A stretch of DNA of 64,000 bases, from the sequence record NC_028957.1; one strand, 5' to 3'. The stretch comes from Escherichia phage vB_EcoM_VR26. The notes beneath the pieces are model-generated. The model was given only the letters and a program-made list of their open reading frames with translations, ran no database searches and had not been told where the DNA came from. A program made the position numbers and the translations under genes. Below are positions 8,780 through 53,007 of the stretch, piece after piece (positions within the stretch are counted from its first letter, which is position 1; every line of letters begins with the position of its first letter).

Positions 8780-9073
8780 TCATACCATACCATTTAAATG
8801 AACTTCTACCCGGCGCTTGATGAGGTCTCTGAAATTAACACTGTTCTCTTGAAGTTTCAACCAGTTACCCGATTTGTCTCTGGTGTGAGTAGAATAATTA
8901 CCATTCCACCAAAAATCAGTGTCATATGCTAAGTTTTCATATTTTTTAACTAGTTTGTTCAGAGCATTACCATTAACACCATTTGGGTATTTGTTGACCA
9001 ATGCAACAACTTCAATTTCCAGATTTTTAAAGGTATTCCGAAGGAAAGATACTTTGTTCATTTTAGACTCCAT
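8780..9073 (-). CDS. Hypothetical protein (occupies segD position of T4)
   Basis: 97-aa ORF antisense between genes 23 and 24, with its own early-type promoter upstream; no recognisable motif. Confidence 0.5.
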   Translation of the reverse strand: MESKMNKVSFLRNTFKNLEIEVVALVNKYPNGVNGNALNKLVKKYENLAYDTDFWWNGNYSTHTRDKSGNWLKLQENSVNFRDLIKRRVEVHLNGMV

Positions 9074-9097
9074 TGTTTGGTAACTCAGTATGAAATC

Positions 9098-9127
9098 ATT
9101 ATGTCTTATCTTAATCGGGTTGTAAAC
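9098..9127 (-). promoter_or_regulatory. T4 early-type promoter (GTTTAC-N18-CATAAT)
   Basis: -35 GTTTAC and -10 CATAAT on minus strand upstream of 8780..9073; conserved downstream box also at about 35000 and 52000. Confidence 0.55.
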
Positions 9128-9133
9128 AACTTT

Positions 9134-9141
9134 TATAAATA
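9134..9141 (+). promoter_or_regulatory. T4-type late promoter TATAAATA for gene 24
   Basis: Exact TATAAATA 27 nt before gene 24 ATG. Confidence 0.65.
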
Positions 9142-9167: not shown

Positions 9168-10448
9168 ATGGCAAAGATTAACAAATTACTGCGCGAGTCA
9201 ACTACCACTACCAGCAACTCCTTGGGCCGCCCGAATCTTGTTGCTTTGACCCGTGCTACAACCAAATTGATTTACCGCGATATTATCGCTGAACAACGTA
9301 CTAACCAGCCAGTTGCTGCGCTGTACGGTGTTAAATATCTTACTCCTGATAATGAATTCAGTTTCCAGACTGGTGCTACTTATGGTGGTGAAGTTGGTTC
9401 TAAAGACCGTGAAACAATTCCGGAATTTACAACCCCAACTCAGGCCGTAGCTAAAGGTGGATACATTAAATTCCAGAATATCGTTTATAAAGCTCTGGTT
9501 GATAATCCATTTGCATCGACCACAGAAACAGTGTTATCTGATGTTCTGCAAGAAGGTCTTGTTGCATTAACTATTCGTTTAGTTCCTGATGCTGCACACA
9601 CCGAAAAATTTGAAGCTGGTGATGTTGAAATTAGTAACGCCGTGTTCCAGGTTAATAAATGGAATGCTCCTGTTAAATCCCGTAAATTGAAAACTGCATT
9701 AACTGTTGAGCTTGCTCAGGATATGGAAGCAAATGGCTTTAATGCTCCTGCATTCCTGGAAGACCTGCTTGCTACTATTATGGCAGATGAAATTAACAAA
9801 GATGTTCTTCAGTCTCTTATTACCGTTTCCAAGCGTTATAAAGTAACTGGCGTTTCTGACAATGGCACCATCGATTTAACATATGATGCAGCTCCAGAAG
9901 GTGCACGTAAACTGTACGAACTGGTTTGTGAAATGAACTCTGAAATTCAGAAAACTACATCTTACTCTGGTACATTCGTTGTTGCCTCAAGTCGTGTGGC
10001 TGCGATGCTCGCCGGTTCCGGTTGGTTGAAACATAAACCTGAAGATGAACAATGGCTCCCGGAAACCGCGTATGGTTATTTGATTAATGGTCTTCCTGTA
10101 TTCTGTGATGTTAACAGCCCATTGGATTATGTGACTGTTGGTGTTAAAGAGAATTATGGTGGTAACGAGGTCGTGGGCTCAATTTTCTATGCTCCTTATA
10201 CAGAAGGCCTGGACTTAGATGATGAAGAGCATGTAGGCGCGTTTAAGGTCATTGTGGACCCAGACAGCTTGCAGCCATCTATCTCCCTGATGGTTCGATA
10301 TGCACTTTCAGCTAACCCTTACACCGTTGCTAAAGACGACAAAGAAGCTCGTATTATCGATGCAACTAATATGGATTTAATGGCTGGCCAGAGCAACATG
10401 TCTTATCTGCTCGGTGTTAAACTTCCACCAATCATTTATGAGGCGTAA
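9168..10448 (+). CDS. 24: Head vertex protein gp24 (copy 1)
   Basis: 426 aa; N-terminus MAKINKLLRESTTT..., close to remembered T4 gp24 (427 aa). Confidence 0.93.
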   Translation: MAKINKLLRESTTTTSNSLGRPNLVALTRATTKLIYRDIIAEQRTNQPVAALYGVKYLTPDNEFSFQTGATYGGEVGSKDRETIPEFTTPTQAVAKGGYIKFQNIVYKALVDNPFASTTETVLSDVLQEGLVALTIRLVPDAAHTEKFEAGDVEISNAVFQVNKWNAPVKSRKLKTALTVELAQDMEANGFNAPAFLEDLLATIMADEINKDVLQSLITVSKRYKVTGVSDNGTIDLTYDAAPEGARKLYELVCEMNSEIQKTTSYSGTFVVASSRVAAMLAGSGWLKHKPEDEQWLPETAYGYLINGLPVFCDVNSPLDYVTVGVKENYGGNEVVGSIFYAPYTEGLDLDDEEHVGAFKVIVDPDSLQPSISLMVRYALSANPYTVAKDDKEARIIDATNMDLMAGQSNMSYLLGVKLPPIIYEA

Positions 10449-11732
10449 ATGCAAAAGATTAACGCACTAATTCACGAATCAACATTAACGGCGGCCAACC
10501 AGGTCGCCCGTCCTAATTTGCTTTCTTATACTCGAGCTACGAATAAACGAATTTTTAAAGCTCTCGTGGCCGAACAGAAAACTACTCAGCCAGTTGCAGC
10601 GCTGTATGGCGTTCGTGTTCTGAACCCAGATGATAAAATGACTTATCTTGGTGGAGCAACGTTTGCCGGTCAAATTGGTATGTTCGAGCGTAAGAATATT
10701 CCAGAATTTACGAACAAAGACGAAGCTTATGCAGTCGGCGATATGTTCCAGTTTGAAAGCATTGTATTCAAAGCTTTGGAAGCTTCTCCTTTTGCCGGGA
10801 CCCTCGAAACTGATTTGGGTGAAGTTATTTCTGAAGCCATTGCGGCTGGCCATATAAGAATGATGTCAGATGCGGCTTTCACTGATAAATTTGAACAAGG
10901 ACATCCTGAAATTGCTGAAGCCGGTTTCCGTATCGATAAATGGCAGACTGAAGTTAAATCCAGAAAACTGAAAACCTCTTTAACCGTTGAGCTTGCGCAA
11001 GACCTGGAAGCAAATGGTTTCGACGCAACAGATTTTATTGATAATATCCTTGGCATTCAAATGGCAGAGGAAATTAATAAGGACGTACTGCAATCTTTAA
11101 TTACCGTAAGTTCACGTTTTAAAGTCCAGGGTGTTTCCGAAAAAGGTGTACTTAATCTTACTGATGCCGCTTATGATAATGCTCAGGACCGTGCTCGAAC
11201 TCTGTATTATTATATGTGCGAAATGAATTCCGCAGTTCAACGTCAGACTTCGTTCGCTGGTACATATGCAGTCGCTTCTTCCCGTTGTGCAGCTATTTTA
11301 GCCGCTTCTGGCTGGGTTGAGAAAAAGGAAGACCAAGATGAATTGGCCTATGGTGTTCTGAAGAACGGTTTGCCACTTTATGCAGATATGAATAGCCCGT
11401 GCGATTATGTTATTGTTGGTGTAAATGCTGATATGGGTGAAGGCCAGACGGTCGCATCTTTGTATTATGCGCCTTATACGGAAGGTCTTAGTGAAGTTGA
11501 TGATGAGGGTGACACCTCGGTTGGGGAATTCAAGGTTATTGTTGACCCTGAAAGTTTACAGCCTACAGTTGCATTGTTAGCTCGTTATGCACTGACTGCG
11601 AACCCTTATACCGTTGCTAAAGACGATAAAGAAGCTCGCATTATTGATGGGGCTGATATGGATAAGATGGCTAACCAAAGTCAATTGAGTTCTTATCTTG
11701 GTGTTAAACTTCCACCACTGGAAAAAGAATAA
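10449..11732 (+). CDS. Head vertex protein gp24 paralog (copy 2)
   Basis: 427 aa, collinear similarity to copy 1 along whole length (shared KSRKLKT.LTVELAQD.EANGF, INKDVLQSLITVS, NPYTVAKDDKEARIID); directly abutting copy 1. Confidence 0.9.
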   Translation: MQKINALIHESTLTAANQVARPNLLSYTRATNKRIFKALVAEQKTTQPVAALYGVRVLNPDDKMTYLGGATFAGQIGMFERKNIPEFTNKDEAYAVGDMFQFESIVFKALEASPFAGTLETDLGEVISEAIAAGHIRMMSDAAFTDKFEQGHPEIAEAGFRIDKWQTEVKSRKLKTSLTVELAQDLEANGFDATDFIDNILGIQMAEEINKDVLQSLITVSSRFKVQGVSEKGVLNLTDAAYDNAQDRARTLYYYMCEMNSAVQRQTSFAGTYAVASSRCAAILAASGWVEKKEDQDELAYGVLKNGLPLYADMNSPCDYVIVGVNADMGEGQTVASLYYAPYTEGLSEVDDEGDTSVGEFKVIVDPESLQPTVALLARYALTANPYTVAKDDKEARIIDGADMDKMANQSQLSSYLGVKLPPLEKE

Positions 11733-34532: not shown

Positions 34533-34603
34533 TTTATTCTCCAGTTATTTTCATTTGTTGGTACAGGTTTATAATATCATAACCTGTACCAAAGTAAACT
34601 GTT

Positions 34604-34972
34604 TTATGCGACTTTAATCCAATTATCTAAATTTAATTCACCCTTAGCTTTCATTTTTTCAATCAGAAGGTCTGCAGTGGTGCGACCATTTTGATACCAT
34701 GTAACATCTTCAGAATAACCAGTTTCTTCATCTTCATAGGTCTTACAACGAATCTTACCAAGAATCAAAGTTTTCAGTTCGTAGGTATCACCAGTAAAAA
34801 AGTTTGTTACCAAAATTTTCCAGGAGAAGTCATCAGAAGGACCTTCAGGAGTCATGCAACCAACAAATTCAAACTGTTCTTTATGCAAGTGCCATTGGAG
34901 TTCTTTAGTTTCAATGGCTTTATAACCGTCGTGGTCTTTACCTTTGATGTATGAGTTAAGATTGATTTTCAT
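34604..34972 (-). CDS. Hypothetical protein
   Basis: 122-aa ORF; GGAG Shine-Dalgarno; early-type promoter upstream. Confidence 0.55.
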   Translation of the reverse strand: MKINLNSYIKGKDHDGYKAIETKELQWHLHKEQFEFVGCMTPEGPSDDFSWKILVTNFFTGDTYELKTLILGKIRCKTYEDEETGYSEDVTWYQNGRTTADLLIEKMKAKGELNLDNWIKVA

Positions 34973-35013
34973 TTTATTCTCCAGTGTTTTATTGTGTAAC
35001 TCAGTATGGAATC

Positions 35014-35043
35014 ATTATGCACTGGTCAAACCCTGTTGTAAAC
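35014..35043 (-). promoter_or_regulatory. T4 early-type promoter (GTTTAC-N18-CATAAT)
   Basis: Same conserved cassette as at 9098 and 52018. Confidence 0.55.
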
Positions 35044-35053
35044 CTTTTTATGG

Positions 35054-35082
35054 AAATAAAAAAGGGACTCCGAAGAGTCCCT
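35054..35082 (-). terminator. Rho-independent terminator (AGGGACTC-cgaa-GAGTCCCT then T-run)
   Basis: Perfect 8-bp stem immediately after stop of small basic ORF. Confidence 0.75.
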
Positions 35083-41216: not shown

Positions 41217-41246
41217 ATTATACTCTGCTCCCGTGAGTTTGTATAC
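41217..41246 (-). promoter_or_regulatory. Early-type promoter (GTATAC-N18-TATAAT)
   Basis: Minus-strand elements upstream of 40698..41180. Confidence 0.4.
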
Positions 41247-50755: not shown

Positions 50756-50995
50756 TCACGCTTTCTTAGCGATTTTCCAGTCAGCTTTAAATTGGTCAAC
50801 ATCAGAGTGGTGAATCCAGAAACCAGATGAGCTACCATCTTCATAAAGAGGGCAACCATCACACTCATCTTTCCAACCCATTGTACACAAAGTTTCTTCT
50901 GCTTTTTCCAGAGCTTCAGGATTGTTACCTTGGATTGTGAAGTACCATTTGCCTTTAACTTCTGAATCTTTGATGCTCTCACGTTTTAATTTCAT
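50756..50995 (-). CDS. Hypothetical protein
   Basis: 79-aa ORF, ATG, GAGGAG Shine-Dalgarno. Confidence 0.5.
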   Translation of the reverse strand: MKLKRESIKDSEVKGKWYFTIQGNNPEALEKAEETLCTMGWKDECDGCPLYEDGSSSGFWIHHSDVDQFKADWKIAKKA

Positions 50996-51053
50996 TTTAT
51001 TCTCCTCAAGTTGGTAAGGCTATAGTATCATTACCATAGCCTGTTGTAAACAT

Positions 51054-51281
51054 TTATTTTTGGATTAAGCCCATATAAAATTCAGCATCTTCAACATGCA
51101 TACCATCACAATACTCGTCAGTCATAAAACGAGTAAGGTCTTCAAGAGGACCTTGGATTTCAATTTGGATACTGAAGAATTGAGTATCTTTAATATAAGT
51201 CATACTCAAAGAAGGATAACGATTACGGATAACTTCGTAAGTGTATTCAAAATCAACAATATCAATATTAACTTTAGCCAT
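51054..51281 (-). CDS. Hypothetical protein
   Basis: 75-aa ORF, ATG, GAGGA Shine-Dalgarno. Confidence 0.5.
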
Positions 51282-51313
51282 TTTATTTTCCTCACTTATT
51301 AGTTGATAGGTCT

Positions 51314-51342
51314 ATAATAACATAATCATAGACATTGTATAC
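51314..51342 (-). promoter_or_regulatory. Early-type promoter (GTATAC-N17-TATTAT)
   Basis: Minus-strand elements upstream of 51054..51281. Confidence 0.4.
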
Positions 51343-51349
51343 TACTTTT

Positions 51350-51604
51350 TTAAATTTTATCAAGCCATTTGCCAAGTTTAGTCATTTCTTTAGTAGCTTT
51401 TTCTAGACTTCTGAACTTGACTAACAAAGGATGAGTGTCTACGCCCATGACTAAAGTGGTTACAAGACTATGCTCGCCTACAAGCCATAGAGAATACGTT
51501 TGAACATCAAGTCCGTAATTTCGGTCTTTATGAACACGTACACCCATCACTTCAAACTGTTCGCTGGCTTTTTCTACTGCATCCAGGAAATCATCTTTAG
51601 TCAT
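51350..51604 (-). CDS. Hypothetical protein
   Basis: 84 aa from internal ATG (track start is TTG). Confidence 0.45.
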   Translation of the reverse strand: MTKDDFLDAVEKASEQFEVMGVRVHKDRNYGLDVQTYSLWLVGEHSLVTTLVMGVDTHPLLVKFRSLEKATKEMTKLGKWLDKI

Positions 51605-51605
51605 A

Positions 51606-51974
51606 TTAAATTCCAAAGGTAGCTTTAATCAGGGCAATGACTTCAGCAGCATTTTTGTGATTAACTTGTACATGAATGGTTTGCGTGTCAACAACAGGAG
51701 CATCTTCATCAACTTCCAGGAAGTGACGGAATTCCCACTCAGCGAGTTCAAAGTACTCATCAGCACCATCCATACTATCCAGGATGGTGCCATCTTTCAT
51801 TTCAACTTTTTCGACAAAATAATCGCCATCAATATAGCACATATCCAGGACTTTGAAGGAACTGCCATGTTGTTCCATCAGCTTAATCATACGCGAATTG
51901 TCATCAGGACTACCAGCGATGAATTGTTTTTTGGCAGCAGGGTCTAATGTATAAAATTTACCAGTTTCCATCAT
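51606..51974 (-). CDS. Hypothetical protein; N-terminal motif shared with 38120..38662
   Basis: 122 aa; GKFYTL...AKKQFIAG; GAGGA Shine-Dalgarno. Confidence 0.55.
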   Translation of the reverse strand: MMETGKFYTLDPAAKKQFIAGSPDDNSRMIKLMEQHGSSFKVLDMCYIDGDYFVEKVEMKDGTILDSMDGADEYFELAEWEFRHFLEVDEDAPVVDTQTIHVQVNHKNAAEVIALIKATFGI

Positions 51975-52017
51975 TTTAATTTCCTCGGTTGTTTATCGTG
52001 TAACTCAGTATGGAATC

Positions 52018-52047
52018 ATTATGCCTTAGCTCAAAGGACTTGTACAC
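52018..52047 (-). promoter_or_regulatory. T4 early-type promoter (GTGTAC-N18-CATAAT)
   Basis: Same conserved cassette as at 9098 and 35014. Confidence 0.5.
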
Positions 52048-52060
52048 TACTTTTTGAAAA

Positions 52061-52084
52061 TAAAAAAGGGACCCGAAGGTCCCC
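52061..52084 (-). terminator. Terminator after gene 32 (GGGACC-cgaa-GGTCCC then T-run)
   Basis: Perfect hairpin 6 nt after gene 32 stop. Confidence 0.75.
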
Positions 52085-52089
52085 TTATA

Positions 52090-53007
52090 TTAAAGGCCAG
52101 CCAGAAGGTCGTCAAGACCATCATCAGAAGGCTCTGGAGTGCTTGGAGCAGTCGCAGTGCGTTCAGACTTAGCAGGTTTACTGGAAGTGAAATCTTCCAT
52201 ATCTTTATCAAAATCGTCCAGGTCAGCGCCCAGTTTATCAGCTTGTGCAGCAGCTTTAGAAGCAGCGCCGCCGAGAGCAGCCGTACCCATTACTTTAGAG
52301 AATTTCTTCTGATTCTCTTCAAGGGATTTAAACACCAGCAATTCATTCAGGTCAGACATTTCGTCCCAAAGTTTTTTCTGGAACGCTTCATCATTGATGC
52401 CAGCGATTTCAGACTGGTTCATGAATTTGGAATCATCGTAGTTTTTATAACCGGAAACCATTTTAGATTTCAGTACGAAGTTTGCACCTTCAAAAGGACA
52501 AGTTACATCAATAGCTGTTTCGCCCATGTCAACATCGACTTCAACCATCTGGTTGATTTTGTCCATGATTTTCTTACCGAAGCGGTATTTGAATACTTGG
52601 CCTTCGTTAGACGGAACAGCAGGGTCTTTAATGACCAGGATGTTAGCCCAGTAAGAAGTATTACGCTTCAGTTTACGATATTCGGATTCGTTTGTATTGT
52701 ACAGGTCATTCTTATTCATGTACGAACACACAGGGCAGTTTTCATAGTCGCCGTGAGTAGAAGTACAGTTTTCAATATACCATTGACCAGCATTTTTAAA
52801 GCCGTGGTTAACCAACTTAATGAACGGAGATGGATTTTCTTCATTCTTAGAAGGCAGGAAACGAATAACCGCAGAGCCGACGCCATCAGTATCTTTCAGT
52901 TTCCATTCTTTTTTATCGTCAGAAGAGAAACCAGAACCACCTTTAAGTGCATTCAGGGAAGCGGCGAGGTCAGCTGGGTTTTTACGTTTAAACATAGACA
53001 TAGACAT
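52090..53007 (-). CDS. 32: Single-stranded DNA-binding protein gp32
   Basis: Zinc-binding and OB-fold region near-identical to remembered T4 gp32 (AVIRFLPSK...CPVCS...[16 protein letters not shown]); three in-frame ATGs at 53007/53001/52995, the last giving the T4 length of 301 aa. Confidence 0.95.

What the first reader, a model, noticed from the sequence alone, without database searches (positions are those of the whole stretch)
34996..35020. Recurrent early-promoter cassette GTAACTCAGTATGRAATCATTATG upstream of three unrelated minus-strand genes
Near-identical 24-mers occur at about 9081, 34996 and 51996 (plus-strand reading). On the minus strand each gives CATAATGATTYCATACTGAGTTAC with a GTTTAC/GTGTAC -35 element 18 nt upstream, so the -10 and the first 20 transcribed nucleotides are conserved. 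This looks like a mobile or duplicated promoter-leader module, or an RNA processing or translation signal.
Basis: seen in the sequence. Interest (0 to 1): 0.35.

Follow-up and report, generated by a model that had tools for sequence, protein, structure and literature searches.

The report
Repeated early-promoter cassette of a T4-like phage
The repeated 24-mer is the -10 box, the six bases after it and the first 12 transcribed bases of a family of host-RNA-polymerase "early" promoters in a T4-like phage; this is an ordinary, already described kind of terminator-promoter cassette, and its one unusual feature is a start-site segment that is nearly invariant (one substitution seen).

Summary
The 24-mer occurs three times on the minus strand (+ coordinates 9080-9103, 34996-35019, 52000-52023), with none expected by chance and no intermediate copies.

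The window is a T4-like phage of the VR7/VR20/SP18 group (Gaprivervirus). Each copy sits in a canonical T4-type early promoter. The order is an A-rich tract, GT(T/G)TACA, a 17-nt spacer, CATAAT, GATTYC, an inferred +1 A, an unstructured leader, a Shine-Dalgarno (SD) site and ATG. Two of the three copies follow a terminator hairpin. This matches the published PeSL ("promoter-early stem-loop") cassettes.

Relatives VR20 and VR25 carry 8 exact 24-mers each. At least 12 VR20 sites hold the core CATACTGAGTTA, including the sites ahead of the motA operon and the genes leading to dmd. Morganella phage MP1 has at least 5, annotated there as promoters.

Other genera have a promoter at the same two loci but with a different -10/leader module. 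Downstream of gene 32, VR20 and the window share the cassette and then diverge in leader and gene, so modules swap relative to genes.

The core varies less than the -10 hexamer does. Between orthologues, 1 of 414 positions differ, against 20 of 306 in the spacer. Its specific role is unknown. I found no RNA fold, Rfam match, 16S complementarity or host match. Verdict: a new member of a known kind, of modest interest.

The parts
35063..35082 (-). Site A: intrinsic-terminator hairpin AGGGACTCTTCGGAGTCCCT ending the 30.9-like gene, followed by a T-tract at 35053-35062
   Evidence: Terminator scan; sequence; conserved in T4 at the same locus
35037..35051 (-). Site A: A-rich UP-like tract ATAAAAAG (35044-35051) plus the -35 element GTTTACA (35037-35043)
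   Evidence: matches the T4-type early -35 GTTTAC and the A-rich -40s described in PMC1524935
35020..35036 (-). Site A: 17-nt spacer, hypervariable between copies
   Evidence: 60% different between paralogues, 6.5% between orthologues
34996..35019 (-). Site A: the reported 24-mer. It comprises the -10 CATAAT (35014-35019), the discriminator GATTCC (35008-35013), and the inferred +1 A at 35007 with the invariant initial transcribed block ATACTGAGTTAC (34996-35007)
34970..34995 (-). Site A: unstructured A/C-rich leader, SD GGAG (34979-34982) and ATG (34970-34972) of the 30.8-like gene (ORF 34604-34972)
52065..52086 (-). Site B: terminator hairpin AAGGGGACCTTCGGGTCCCTTT after gene 32 (ORF 52090-53007), followed by a T-tract
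   Evidence: a terminator after gene 32 is conserved in T4-likes (PMC1524935)
52000..52047 (-). Site B: -35 GTGTACA (52041-52047), 17-nt spacer (52024-52040), -10 CATAAT (52018-52023), GATTCC (52012-52017), and the inferred +1 A at 52011 with block ATACTGAGTTAC (52000-52011)
51972..51999 (-). Site B: leader, SD GAGG (51983-51986) and ATG (51972-51974) of a 122-aa Frd.2-like ORF (51606-51974, phrog_622)
9080..9127 (-). Site C: -35 GTTTACA (9121-9127), 17-nt spacer (9104-9120), -10 CATAAT (9098-9103), GATTTC (9092-9097), and the inferred +1 A at 9091 with block ATACTGAGTTAC (9080-9091). No terminator hairpin lies upstream, because this is a divergent intergenic region shared with gene 24
9059..9079 (-). 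Site C: leader, SD GGAG (9068-9071) and the probable true ATG (9059-9061) of the small ORF between genes 23 and 24. The ORF is listed as 8780-9073; the PHROG match begins at residue 5
9134..9141 (+). Late-promoter box TATAAATA for gene 24 (ATG at 9168) on the opposite strand, overlapping the A/T-rich tract upstream of the site C -35

Best explanation
Each 24-mer is the core and downstream part of a sigma-70-dependent early promoter of a T4-like (Gaprivervirus) phage. It comprises the -10 hexamer CATAAT, the discriminator GATTYC and the first 12 transcribed bases ATACTGAGTTAC.

The promoter sits in a composite intergenic cassette. The cassette runs from the terminator hairpin and T-tract of the upstream gene (two of three sites), through an A-rich UP-like tract, GT(T/G)TACA and a 17-nt free spacer, to the -10, a 30-45-nt unstructured A/C-rich leader, a GGAG/GAGG SD and the ATG.

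Inferred mechanism: unmodified host RNA polymerase fires these promoters immediately after infection, and the hairpin insulates each small gene from its neighbour. The conserved patches (T-tract to -35, and -10 to +20) also serve as short homologies. Through them the very active T4-type recombination system swaps promoter/leader modules and gene cassettes. This is the published PeSL behaviour.

The nearly invariant start-site block (one substitution seen) is under purifying selection. I infer that it tunes initiation or escape, or the 5' end of the mRNA, but its exact role is not shown.
For: The window is T4-like and about 96% identical to VR7-group phages.

All three sites score as TTTACA/TGTACA, 17 nt, CATAAT. 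They share the architecture of seven other early-type promoters on the same strand of the window. The features match published T4-like early consensus: GTTTAC at -36 to -31, an A-rich -40s region, C tolerated at -12, and C preferred at -3 to -1 (PMC1524935).

Terminator hairpins precede two of the sites.

VR20 and VR25 each hold 8 exact 24-mers. VR20 has at least 12 copies of the core, all on the early strand. They lie ahead of VR20_272-motA, ahead of VR20_040/039 which lead to dmd, and ahead of nrdC.8-like, ndd-region, 30.8 and frd.1-like genes. MP1 has at least 5 copies, annotated as MEME promoters.

Selection: between orthologues the spacer differs at 20 of 306 positions, against 1 of 414 for -10 plus discriminator plus core (Fisher p = 3e-7). 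Comparing MP1 with VR20 for the frd.1-like cassette, the promoter is 78% identical, with the differences mostly in the spacer and a few near the SD, while the coding sequence is 59% identical.

Module exchange: T4, QL01 and HX01 have a promoter at the same loci but with a different -10/leader. VR20 and the window are identical from gene 32 through CATAATGATTCC, apart from a mosaic spacer, and then differ in leader and gene. The gene order of the frd cluster is permuted, and the frd.1-like gene has a block promoter in VR20 but a generic one in the window.
Against: There are no transcription data, so the start site and the early timing are inferred from consensus and from the genes served.

The -10 is CATAAT, not the TAYWAT given for T4/PST PeSLs. 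Site C has no stem-loop.

Two of the three sites (30.8 and the 23/24 ORF) are positionally conserved across genera, so only the module, not the gene cassette, has moved there.

A generic requirement for promoter escape would not be expected to fix all 12 positions more tightly than the -10 itself, so part of the function is unexplained.

The orthologue pair counts are not phylogenetically independent.
Confidence: 0.8

Rival explanations
1. The invariant block C-CATACTGAGTTA (-1 to +11) is a specific cis-regulatory DNA site that marks a subset of early promoters. It could be an operator half-site for a phage or host protein, for example in the still unexplained shut-off of early transcription. 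Alternatively it could be a second -10-like hexamer (CATACT at -1 to +5) that re-engages sigma-70 and causes a promoter-proximal pause.
For: The block varies less than the sigma-contacted -10 (CATAAT/TATAAT/TATTAT) and the discriminator (7 variants), with only one substitution seen across window, VR7, VR20, VR25 and MP1 copies. It sits as a constant island between variable flanks. CATACT keeps the key A2 and T6 of a -10, whereas the generic ATCAAC leaders do not (sequence). Only 3 of about 10 early promoters in the window carry it. Hinton 2010 (PMC2988021) states that the mechanism that stops early transcription is unknown.
Against: No candidate binding protein was identified. There is no dyad symmetry at the three window sites. 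No pause or footprint data exist. The family was first collected by exact match, although a search allowing 1-4 mismatches found only one variant.
Confidence: 0.2
2. The block acts in the RNA, as a 5'-terminal leader element AUACUGAGUUAC that serves as a processing site, a stability determinant, a translational enhancer or an sRNA/protein target.
For: It lies at the inferred 5' end of every transcript of the family and is followed by a semi-conserved A/C-rich stretch and a T4-type SD, often GGAG, the RegB target motif. It partly resembles the SD region ACACUGGAG, and some VR20 leaders carry a degenerate second copy CACACTGAATCA.
Against: Leaders fold weakly and inconsistently, at -0.3 to -5.5 kcal/mol. 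There is no Rfam family. Complementarity to 16S rRNA is no better than for shuffled sequence. No antisense copy occurs in the window. Generic early leaders in the same phage do without the block.
Confidence: 0.1
3. The identity is purely historical. The module spread recently by duplication or gene conversion among early promoters and has no function beyond being a promoter.
For: T4-type phages recombine at very high rates on short homologies, and PeSL crossovers have been mapped between the -10 and the ATG (PMC2839356). The spacer at the gene 32 site is mosaic: its 3' end CTAAGG matches other block copies.
Against: Paralogue spacers are about 60% different and the discriminators and leaders differ, so conversion tracts would have to end repeatedly at the edges of a 12-13-nt block. 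The block is identical in MP1, whose coding sequence next to it is only 59% identical. Orthologues show far fewer changes in the block than in the spacer.
Confidence: 0.12

Closest known systems
PeSL (promoter-early stem-loop) cassettes of T4-like phages (Arbiol et al. 2010, PMC2839356; Comeau et al. 2014, PMC4122927)
   Same: Intergenic composite of a stem-loop/terminator, an AT-rich tract, a sigma-70-like early promoter, an SD and an ATG. Many copies occur per genome with conservation spread over about 100 bp. They associate with small genes of unknown function and with gene swaps between close relatives, and the junctions lie in the promoter/leader.
   Different: PeSLs were described for RB49/phi1, T4/PST and KVP40/nt-1, not for the VR7 group. 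Here the -10 is CATAAT rather than TAYWAT. One of the three sites has no stem-loop. The first 12 transcribed nt are nearly invariant (one substitution seen), which those papers do not report. Mini-circle formation was not tested.
Bacteriophage T4 early promoters (Pe) as reviewed by Hinton 2010 (PMC2988021) and compared across T4-likes by Nolan et al. 2006 (PMC1524935)
   Same: GTTTAC-type -35, A-rich UP-like region, 17-nt spacing, A-11/T-7, C-rich -3 to -1, location ahead of immediate-early genes, and 'additional regions of consensus' beyond the sigma-70 elements.
   Different: At the orthologous 30.9/30.8 site T4 has TAGTAT TATCTT ACACAAAC and lacks the block. The 66-mer BLAST found no T4 match.
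Phage 'morons' (a gene flanked by its own promoter and terminator in lambdoid phages)
   Same: Small accessory genes, each with a private promoter and an insulating terminator.
   Different: Morons have no conserved flanking sequence that could itself mediate exchange. Here the flanks are a repeated family.
Conserved downstream (initial transcribed) region of strong coliphage T5 early promoters such as PN25 (from my own knowledge: Kammerer, Deuschle, Gentz and Bujard, EMBO J 1986)
   Same: A family of very strong host-polymerase phage promoters that share sequence in +1 to +20, which affects late steps of initiation and escape. Both start with ATA and contain TGAG.
   Different: Unrelated phage and different sequence. 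The resemblance is recalled, not tested here.
Sigma-70-dependent promoter-proximal pause elements (lambda PR' type)
   Same: A -10-like hexamer with A2/T6 at the very start of the transcribed region.
   Different: No Q-like antiterminator is known in T4-like phages and no pausing is shown. This is only an analogy for the novel reading.

Membership tests
PeSL cassette | Intergenic, oriented with the downstream gene, ending in an SD and a start codon | tested here: met
   All three sites
PeSL cassette | Sigma-70-like early promoter with a 17-nt spacer (T4/PST type TTTACW N17 TAYWAT) | tested here: met
   TTTACA or TGTACA, 17 nt, CATAAT. The first -10 base is C rather than T, a variant recorded for RB49 (PMC1524935)
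PeSL cassette | AT-rich tract upstream of the -35 | tested here: met
   ATAAAAAG, CAAAAAGTA and TATAAAAGTT
PeSL cassette | Stable stem-loop next to or overlapping the promoter | tested here: inconclusive
   Terminator hairpins lie upstream of sites A and B. Site C has none. Some VR20/VR25/MP1 paralogues instead have a spacer complementary to the block, enclosing the -10
PeSL cassette | Multi-copy family per genome | tested here: met
   3 in the window, 8 exact 24-mers in each of VR20 and VR25, at least 12 core copies in VR20, and 6-11 BLAST places per relative
PeSL cassette | Located at insertions, deletions or replacements between close relatives | tested here: met
   Downstream of gene 32 the window and VR20 share the cassette, then differ in leader and gene, and the frd-cluster order is permuted. 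This is not seen at sites A and C, which are positionally conserved
PeSL cassette | Promoter and terminator activity; mini-circles formed by recombination between flanking copies | not testable with these tools
   Needs reporter fusions and inverse PCR on infected cells
T4-type early promoter (Pe) | Active immediately after infection with unmodified host polymerase, without phage protein synthesis | not testable with these tools
   Indirect only: in VR20 the same module precedes the motA operon, whose product is needed for middle transcription, and the genes leading to dmd
T4 middle promoter | MotA box (a/t)(a/t)TGCTT(t/c)A centred at -30, replacing the -35 | tested here: not met
   None at the three sites. 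One VR20 paralogue has TGCTTTA in its spacer, but at the wrong spacing for either -10
Known structured RNA family (Rfam) | Match to a covariance model at the gathering score | tested here: not met
   0 matches in the whole window

The most novel reading that the evidence does not exclude
The nearly invariant 12-13 nt at the start site (CCATACTGAGTTA) is not just part of a strong promoter. It is a specific recognition element shared by Gaprivervirus and the Morganella phage MP1, and it defines a sub-regulon of immediate-early genes that includes the motA operon and the genes leading to dmd. It would act either as a sigma-70 re-binding/pause site or as the operator or leader target of a still unknown factor that times or shuts off these genes.
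Probability: 0.2. Interest if true: 0.6.

Novelty: new member of a known kind. Interest (0 to 1): 0.3.

Why it matters
The finding adds the VR7/SP18 group, and through shared modules the Morganella phage MP1, to the T4-like lineages where terminator-promoter cassettes are repeated and exchanged. It gives a clear example downstream of gene 32 of a junction inside the promoter.

It also shows that the -10-to-leader part of early promoters behaves as a replaceable module at fixed genomic positions. One such module has a start-site segment that is better conserved than the -10 hexamer itself.

If that segment proves to be a specific control site, it would bear on the open question of how T4-type phages time and switch off early transcription. 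Otherwise it is a useful annotation aid: a precise motif for early transcription units in these phages.

Tried and rejected
- **Rfam:** a scan of the whole window gave no family.
- **Leader folding:** 16 family leaders from the inferred start site to +30 of the ORF fold weakly and inconsistently.
- **Promoter-region folding:** the three promoter regions gave z-scores of +0.6 to +1.3, so no hidden hairpin. An inverted-repeat search found none at the three sites.
- **16S rRNA:** the best complementarity of the block is 6 nt, no better than shuffled sequence.
- **E. coli genomes:** a 67-nt promoter query gave no match, so this is not mimicry of a host promoter.
- **Antisense partner:** the reverse complement of the block is not found elsewhere in the window.
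- **Literature:** a full-text search for the motif found only unrelated primers. The VR7 genome paper is not in the held library, and the T4 genome review PMC150520 is not held.
- **IMG/VR scans:** the 14-mer scan gave almost only chance hits in unrelated contigs, and the metagenomic hits of the 18-mer scan are coding-sequence coincidences.
- **Other motifs:** I looked by eye for a MotA box, LexA, IHF, Fur and integron core sites. Only a partial Fur-like ATAATGAT overlaps the -10, which I judged coincidental.
- **Second promoter:** a TTGACC N15-16 CATACT promoter inside the cassette is present in some copies only, and TTGAC also occurs in a block-less spacer, so I did not adopt it.

Full report
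**1. The observation**

The pattern GTAACTCAGTATGRAATCATTATG matches exactly at + 9080-9103, 34996-35019 and 52000-52023. None of 100 dinucleotide-preserving shuffles gave a match, even with 3 mismatches allowed. A full mismatch spectrum of the minus-strand 24-mer gives 0, 0 and 1 mismatches for these sites, and the next best site has 9 mismatches. The family is therefore discrete and not the top of a continuum.

**2. Where the window comes from**

A 2-kb query around the finding is about 96% identical to Escherichia phages of the VR7/VR20/VR25/SP18 group, genus Gaprivervirus in the Tevenvirinae. The gene order is that of T4:
- Site A lies between the 30.9-like and 30.8-like genes.
- Site B lies directly after gene 32 and its terminator.
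- Site C lies in the divergent gap between gene 24 and a small minus-strand ORF that sits between genes 23 and 24.

The three downstream ORFs fall in three different PHROG families of unknown function.

**3. Anatomy of the sites**

All three sites read the same way on the minus strand. The order is:
- an A-rich tract;
- GT(T/G)TACA;
- a 17-nt spacer;
- CATAAT;
- GATTYC;
- ATACTGAGTTAC;
- (A/C)(C/A)AA(T/C)AAA;
- a short A/C-rich stretch;
- GGAG or GAGG;
- about 6-8 nt;
- ATG.

The consensus scan flags each site as TTTACA/TGTACA, 17 nt, CATAAT. Sites A and B are preceded by a G+C-rich hairpin followed by a T-tract, which is the terminator of the upstream gene. Site C has no hairpin. Its upstream A/T-rich tract overlaps the late-promoter box TATAAATA (+ 9134-9141) of gene 24 on the other strand.

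These features fit published T4-like early promoters: GTTTAC at -36 to -31, an A-rich -40 to -44 region, A-11/T-7, T or C at -12, and C-rich -3 to -1 (PMC1524935). They also fit the PeSL cassettes described by Arbiol et al. and Comeau et al. (PMC2839356, PMC4122927).

Placing +1 at the A seven nt after the -10 is an inference. With that start, the 24-mer holds the -10, the discriminator and only the first 12 transcribed nt.

**4. The family beyond the window**

In IMG/VR the exact 24-mer occurs 8 times in VR20 and 8 times in VR25, always on the same strand. BLAST of a 66-mer finds 6-11 places per genome in 35 records. Nearly all of these are VR7-group phages, and T4 is not among them.

Searching for the core CATACTGAGTTA shows more copies with other -10 hexamers (TATAAT, TATTAT) and other discriminators (TATCC, GTTCC, GGTCC, GATCC, AAACC). 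VR20 has at least 12 copies. Morganella phage MP1, in a different genus (Gualtarvirus), has at least 5. In the MP1 record these are annotated as 'putative promoter discovered using MEME', and the MP1 paper reports 12 such promoters without further analysis.

Mapping the VR20 copies onto its annotation puts them ahead of these genes:
- VR20_040/039, which lead to dmd;
- nrdC.8-like and VR20_094;
- four consecutive small ORFs, VR20_140 to VR20_143;
- the 23/24 ORF;
- 30.8;
- the frd.1-like gene;
- VR20_272-motA;
- an ndd-region ORF.

Because MotA is the activator of middle transcription, a promoter feeding motA has to be an early one. This is indirect support for the early class.

**5. What is conserved**

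Between paralogues the 17-nt spacer is about 60% different. The -10 differs at 7% of positions, the discriminator at 16% and the next 8 nt at 31%, while the 12-nt core never differs.

The copies were first collected by exact match. I therefore also searched 190 kb of window and relatives for cores with 1-4 mismatches behind a -10-like hexamer. Only one real variant appeared, CGTACTGAGTTA in VR25.

Between orthologous copies in the window, VR7, VR20 and VR25, the spacer differs at 20 of 306 compared positions. The -10 plus discriminator plus core differs at 1 of 414, giving Fisher p = 3e-7. The pairs are not phylogenetically independent.

Comparing MP1 with VR20 for the homologous frd.1-like cassette, the promoter region is 78% identical. 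The changes lie mostly in the spacer, with a few near the SD. The coding sequence is 59% identical.

The block is thus a constant island between variable flanks and is better conserved than the sigma-contacted -10. I read this as purifying selection, not as a trace of recent copying.

**6. Modules move relative to genes**

At the locus orthologous to site A, T4 has the same terminator, GTTTACA and 17-nt spacing. Its -10 and leader are different (TAGTAT TATCTT ACACAAACAAAGGAG) and lack the block.

At the locus of site C, Dhakavirus QL01 and Mosigvirus HX01 keep the late box, the A-rich tract and GTTTACA. They carry TACTATAGAC(C/T)TATCAA instead of the 24-mer. That second module, TA(C/T)TATAGACCTATCAAC, recurs at other promoters of the window (51342, 51051) and of VR20, ESCO10 and dhaeg.

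At site B the window and VR20 are identical from the end of gene 32 through the terminator, the A-tract, GTGTACA and CATAATGATTCC, except for a mosaic 3' half of the spacer. They then diverge. The window continues with the block and a 122-aa ORF. VR20 continues with the generic ATCAACTACTGA leader and a different gene (VR20_252).

The homologue of the 122-aa ORF in VR20 (VR20_250) sits two genes further on, behind another promoter. The order of the frd cluster is permuted. The frd.1-like gene has a block promoter in VR20 but a generic one in the window.

This is the PeSL pattern, with exchange junctions inside the promoter/leader. The 24-mer also proves to be two separable parts: CATAATGATTCC and the block.

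**7. Tests of what the block might do**

- **RNA structure:** leaders from the inferred start to +30 of the ORF fold weakly (-0.3 to -5.5 kcal/mol) and differently in each copy. The promoter regions of the three sites fold no better than shuffles, with z from +0.6 to +1.3.
- **Known RNA families:** no Rfam family matches anywhere in the window.
- **16S rRNA:** complementarity is at chance level.
- **Host genomes:** there is no similar sequence in 5,426 E. coli genomes.
- **Antisense copy:** none in the window.
- **Literature:** no paper in the held library contains the motif.

What remains is sequence-level reasoning. The block contains a -10-like hexamer CATACT at -1 to +5, with the key A2 and T6, which the generic leaders lack. 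In several paralogues without an upstream terminator, the spacer is the reverse complement of the block. The clearest case is a perfect 13-nt repeat in MP1, with 10-11-nt repeats in MP1 and VR25 and 9 nt in VR20. The block there forms one arm of a hairpin that encloses the -10. This is a PeSL subclass described by Arbiol et al..

**8. Explanation and rivals**

Best supported (confidence 0.8): these are T4-type early promoters inside PeSL-type cassettes. The 24-mer is a lineage-specific -10/start-site module that has replaced other modules at several fixed promoter positions and travels with or without genes.

Shown here:
- the architecture;
- the multi-copy family;
- the association with immediate-early loci in a relative;
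- the selection pattern;
- the module exchange.

Inferred:
- the start site;
- the early timing;
- recombination as the mechanism of exchange;
- what the block itself does.

The rivals concern only the last point. They are a specific DNA control site or sigma-dependent pause (0.2), an RNA leader element (0.1), and pure gene conversion without function (0.12).

**9. Novelty and verdict**

The kind of element is known. The VR7-group/MP1 module and its nearly invariant start-site block (one substitution seen) are not described in the literature I could search. I rate it a new member of a known kind with modest interest (0.3). The residual novel reading, the block as a specific regulatory site defining a subset of early genes, has a probability of about 0.2.

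Noticed in passing
window 34558-34592 (-), 51017-51042 (-), also promoters at 41246 and 42789 (-): Several other early-type promoters in the window carry an inverted repeat that encloses the -10 hexamer, for example a perfect 12-bp repeat TTGGTACAGGTT/AACCTGTACCAA around TATTAT. Folding z-scores are -2.2 to -3.9, unlike the three block-bearing promoters. This matches the PeSL subclass whose stem-loop overlaps the -10.
   Followed up: partly
window 51342-51277 (-), 51051-50986 (-); L127, L128, L129, L130, L131: A second widely shared -10/start-site module, TA(C/T)TATAGACCTATCAAC(TAC), recurs at different early promoters in the window and in VR20, Dhakavirus (ESCO10, dhaeg, QL01) and Mosigvirus (HX01). 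Extended -10-to-leader conservation is therefore general in these phages and not special to the 24-mer.
   Followed up: partly
window 9168-10448 (+) and 10449-11732 (+): Two tandem paralogues of the head vertex protein gp24 (426 and 427 aa, 57% identical) lie directly adjacent. T4 has a single gene 24.
   Followed up: partly
window 9059-9073 (-): The mechanical ORF 8780-9073 probably starts at the second in-frame ATG (9061). GGAG lies 6 nt before that ATG, the PHROG profile aligns from residue 5, and tblastn hits in other genera start at residue 4.
   Followed up: partly
window 9134-9141 (+): The late-promoter box TATAAATA of gene 24 overlaps, on the opposite strand, the A/T-rich tract upstream of the -35 of the site C early promoter. 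One 30-nt stretch thus serves two promoter classes in opposite directions. It is conserved in QL01 and HX01.
   Followed up: partly
window 50900-52100 (-) versus L127 (VR20 144250-146879): The small genes between gene 32 and frd are in a different order in the window and in VR20, and VR20 has about 430 bp more. ECML-359 is colinear with the window.
   Followed up: partly
L133 3685 (MP1), L009 1213 (VR25), L004 9419 (VR20): In some paralogues the promoter spacer is the reverse complement of the start-site block: GGTAACTCAGTAT ... ATACTGAGTTACC in MP1, and TCAGTATGGGA ... TCCCATACTGA in VR25. In VR20 the annotated start of VR20_281 lies upstream of this promoter and is probably set too far 5'.
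   Followed up: no
L001 2838, L004 5408 (VR20), L007 and L010 (VR25): In one leader type the block is followed directly by a degenerate second copy, CATACTGAGTTA CACACTGAATCA. The common SD context ACACTGGAG also resembles the block, which hints that the block arose from a leader/SD duplication.
   Followed up: no
window, whole: TATAAATA occurs 14 times on the + strand and 3 times on the - strand, while all early-type promoters found lie on the - strand. This is the T4-like division of late and early transcription by strand.
   Followed up: no
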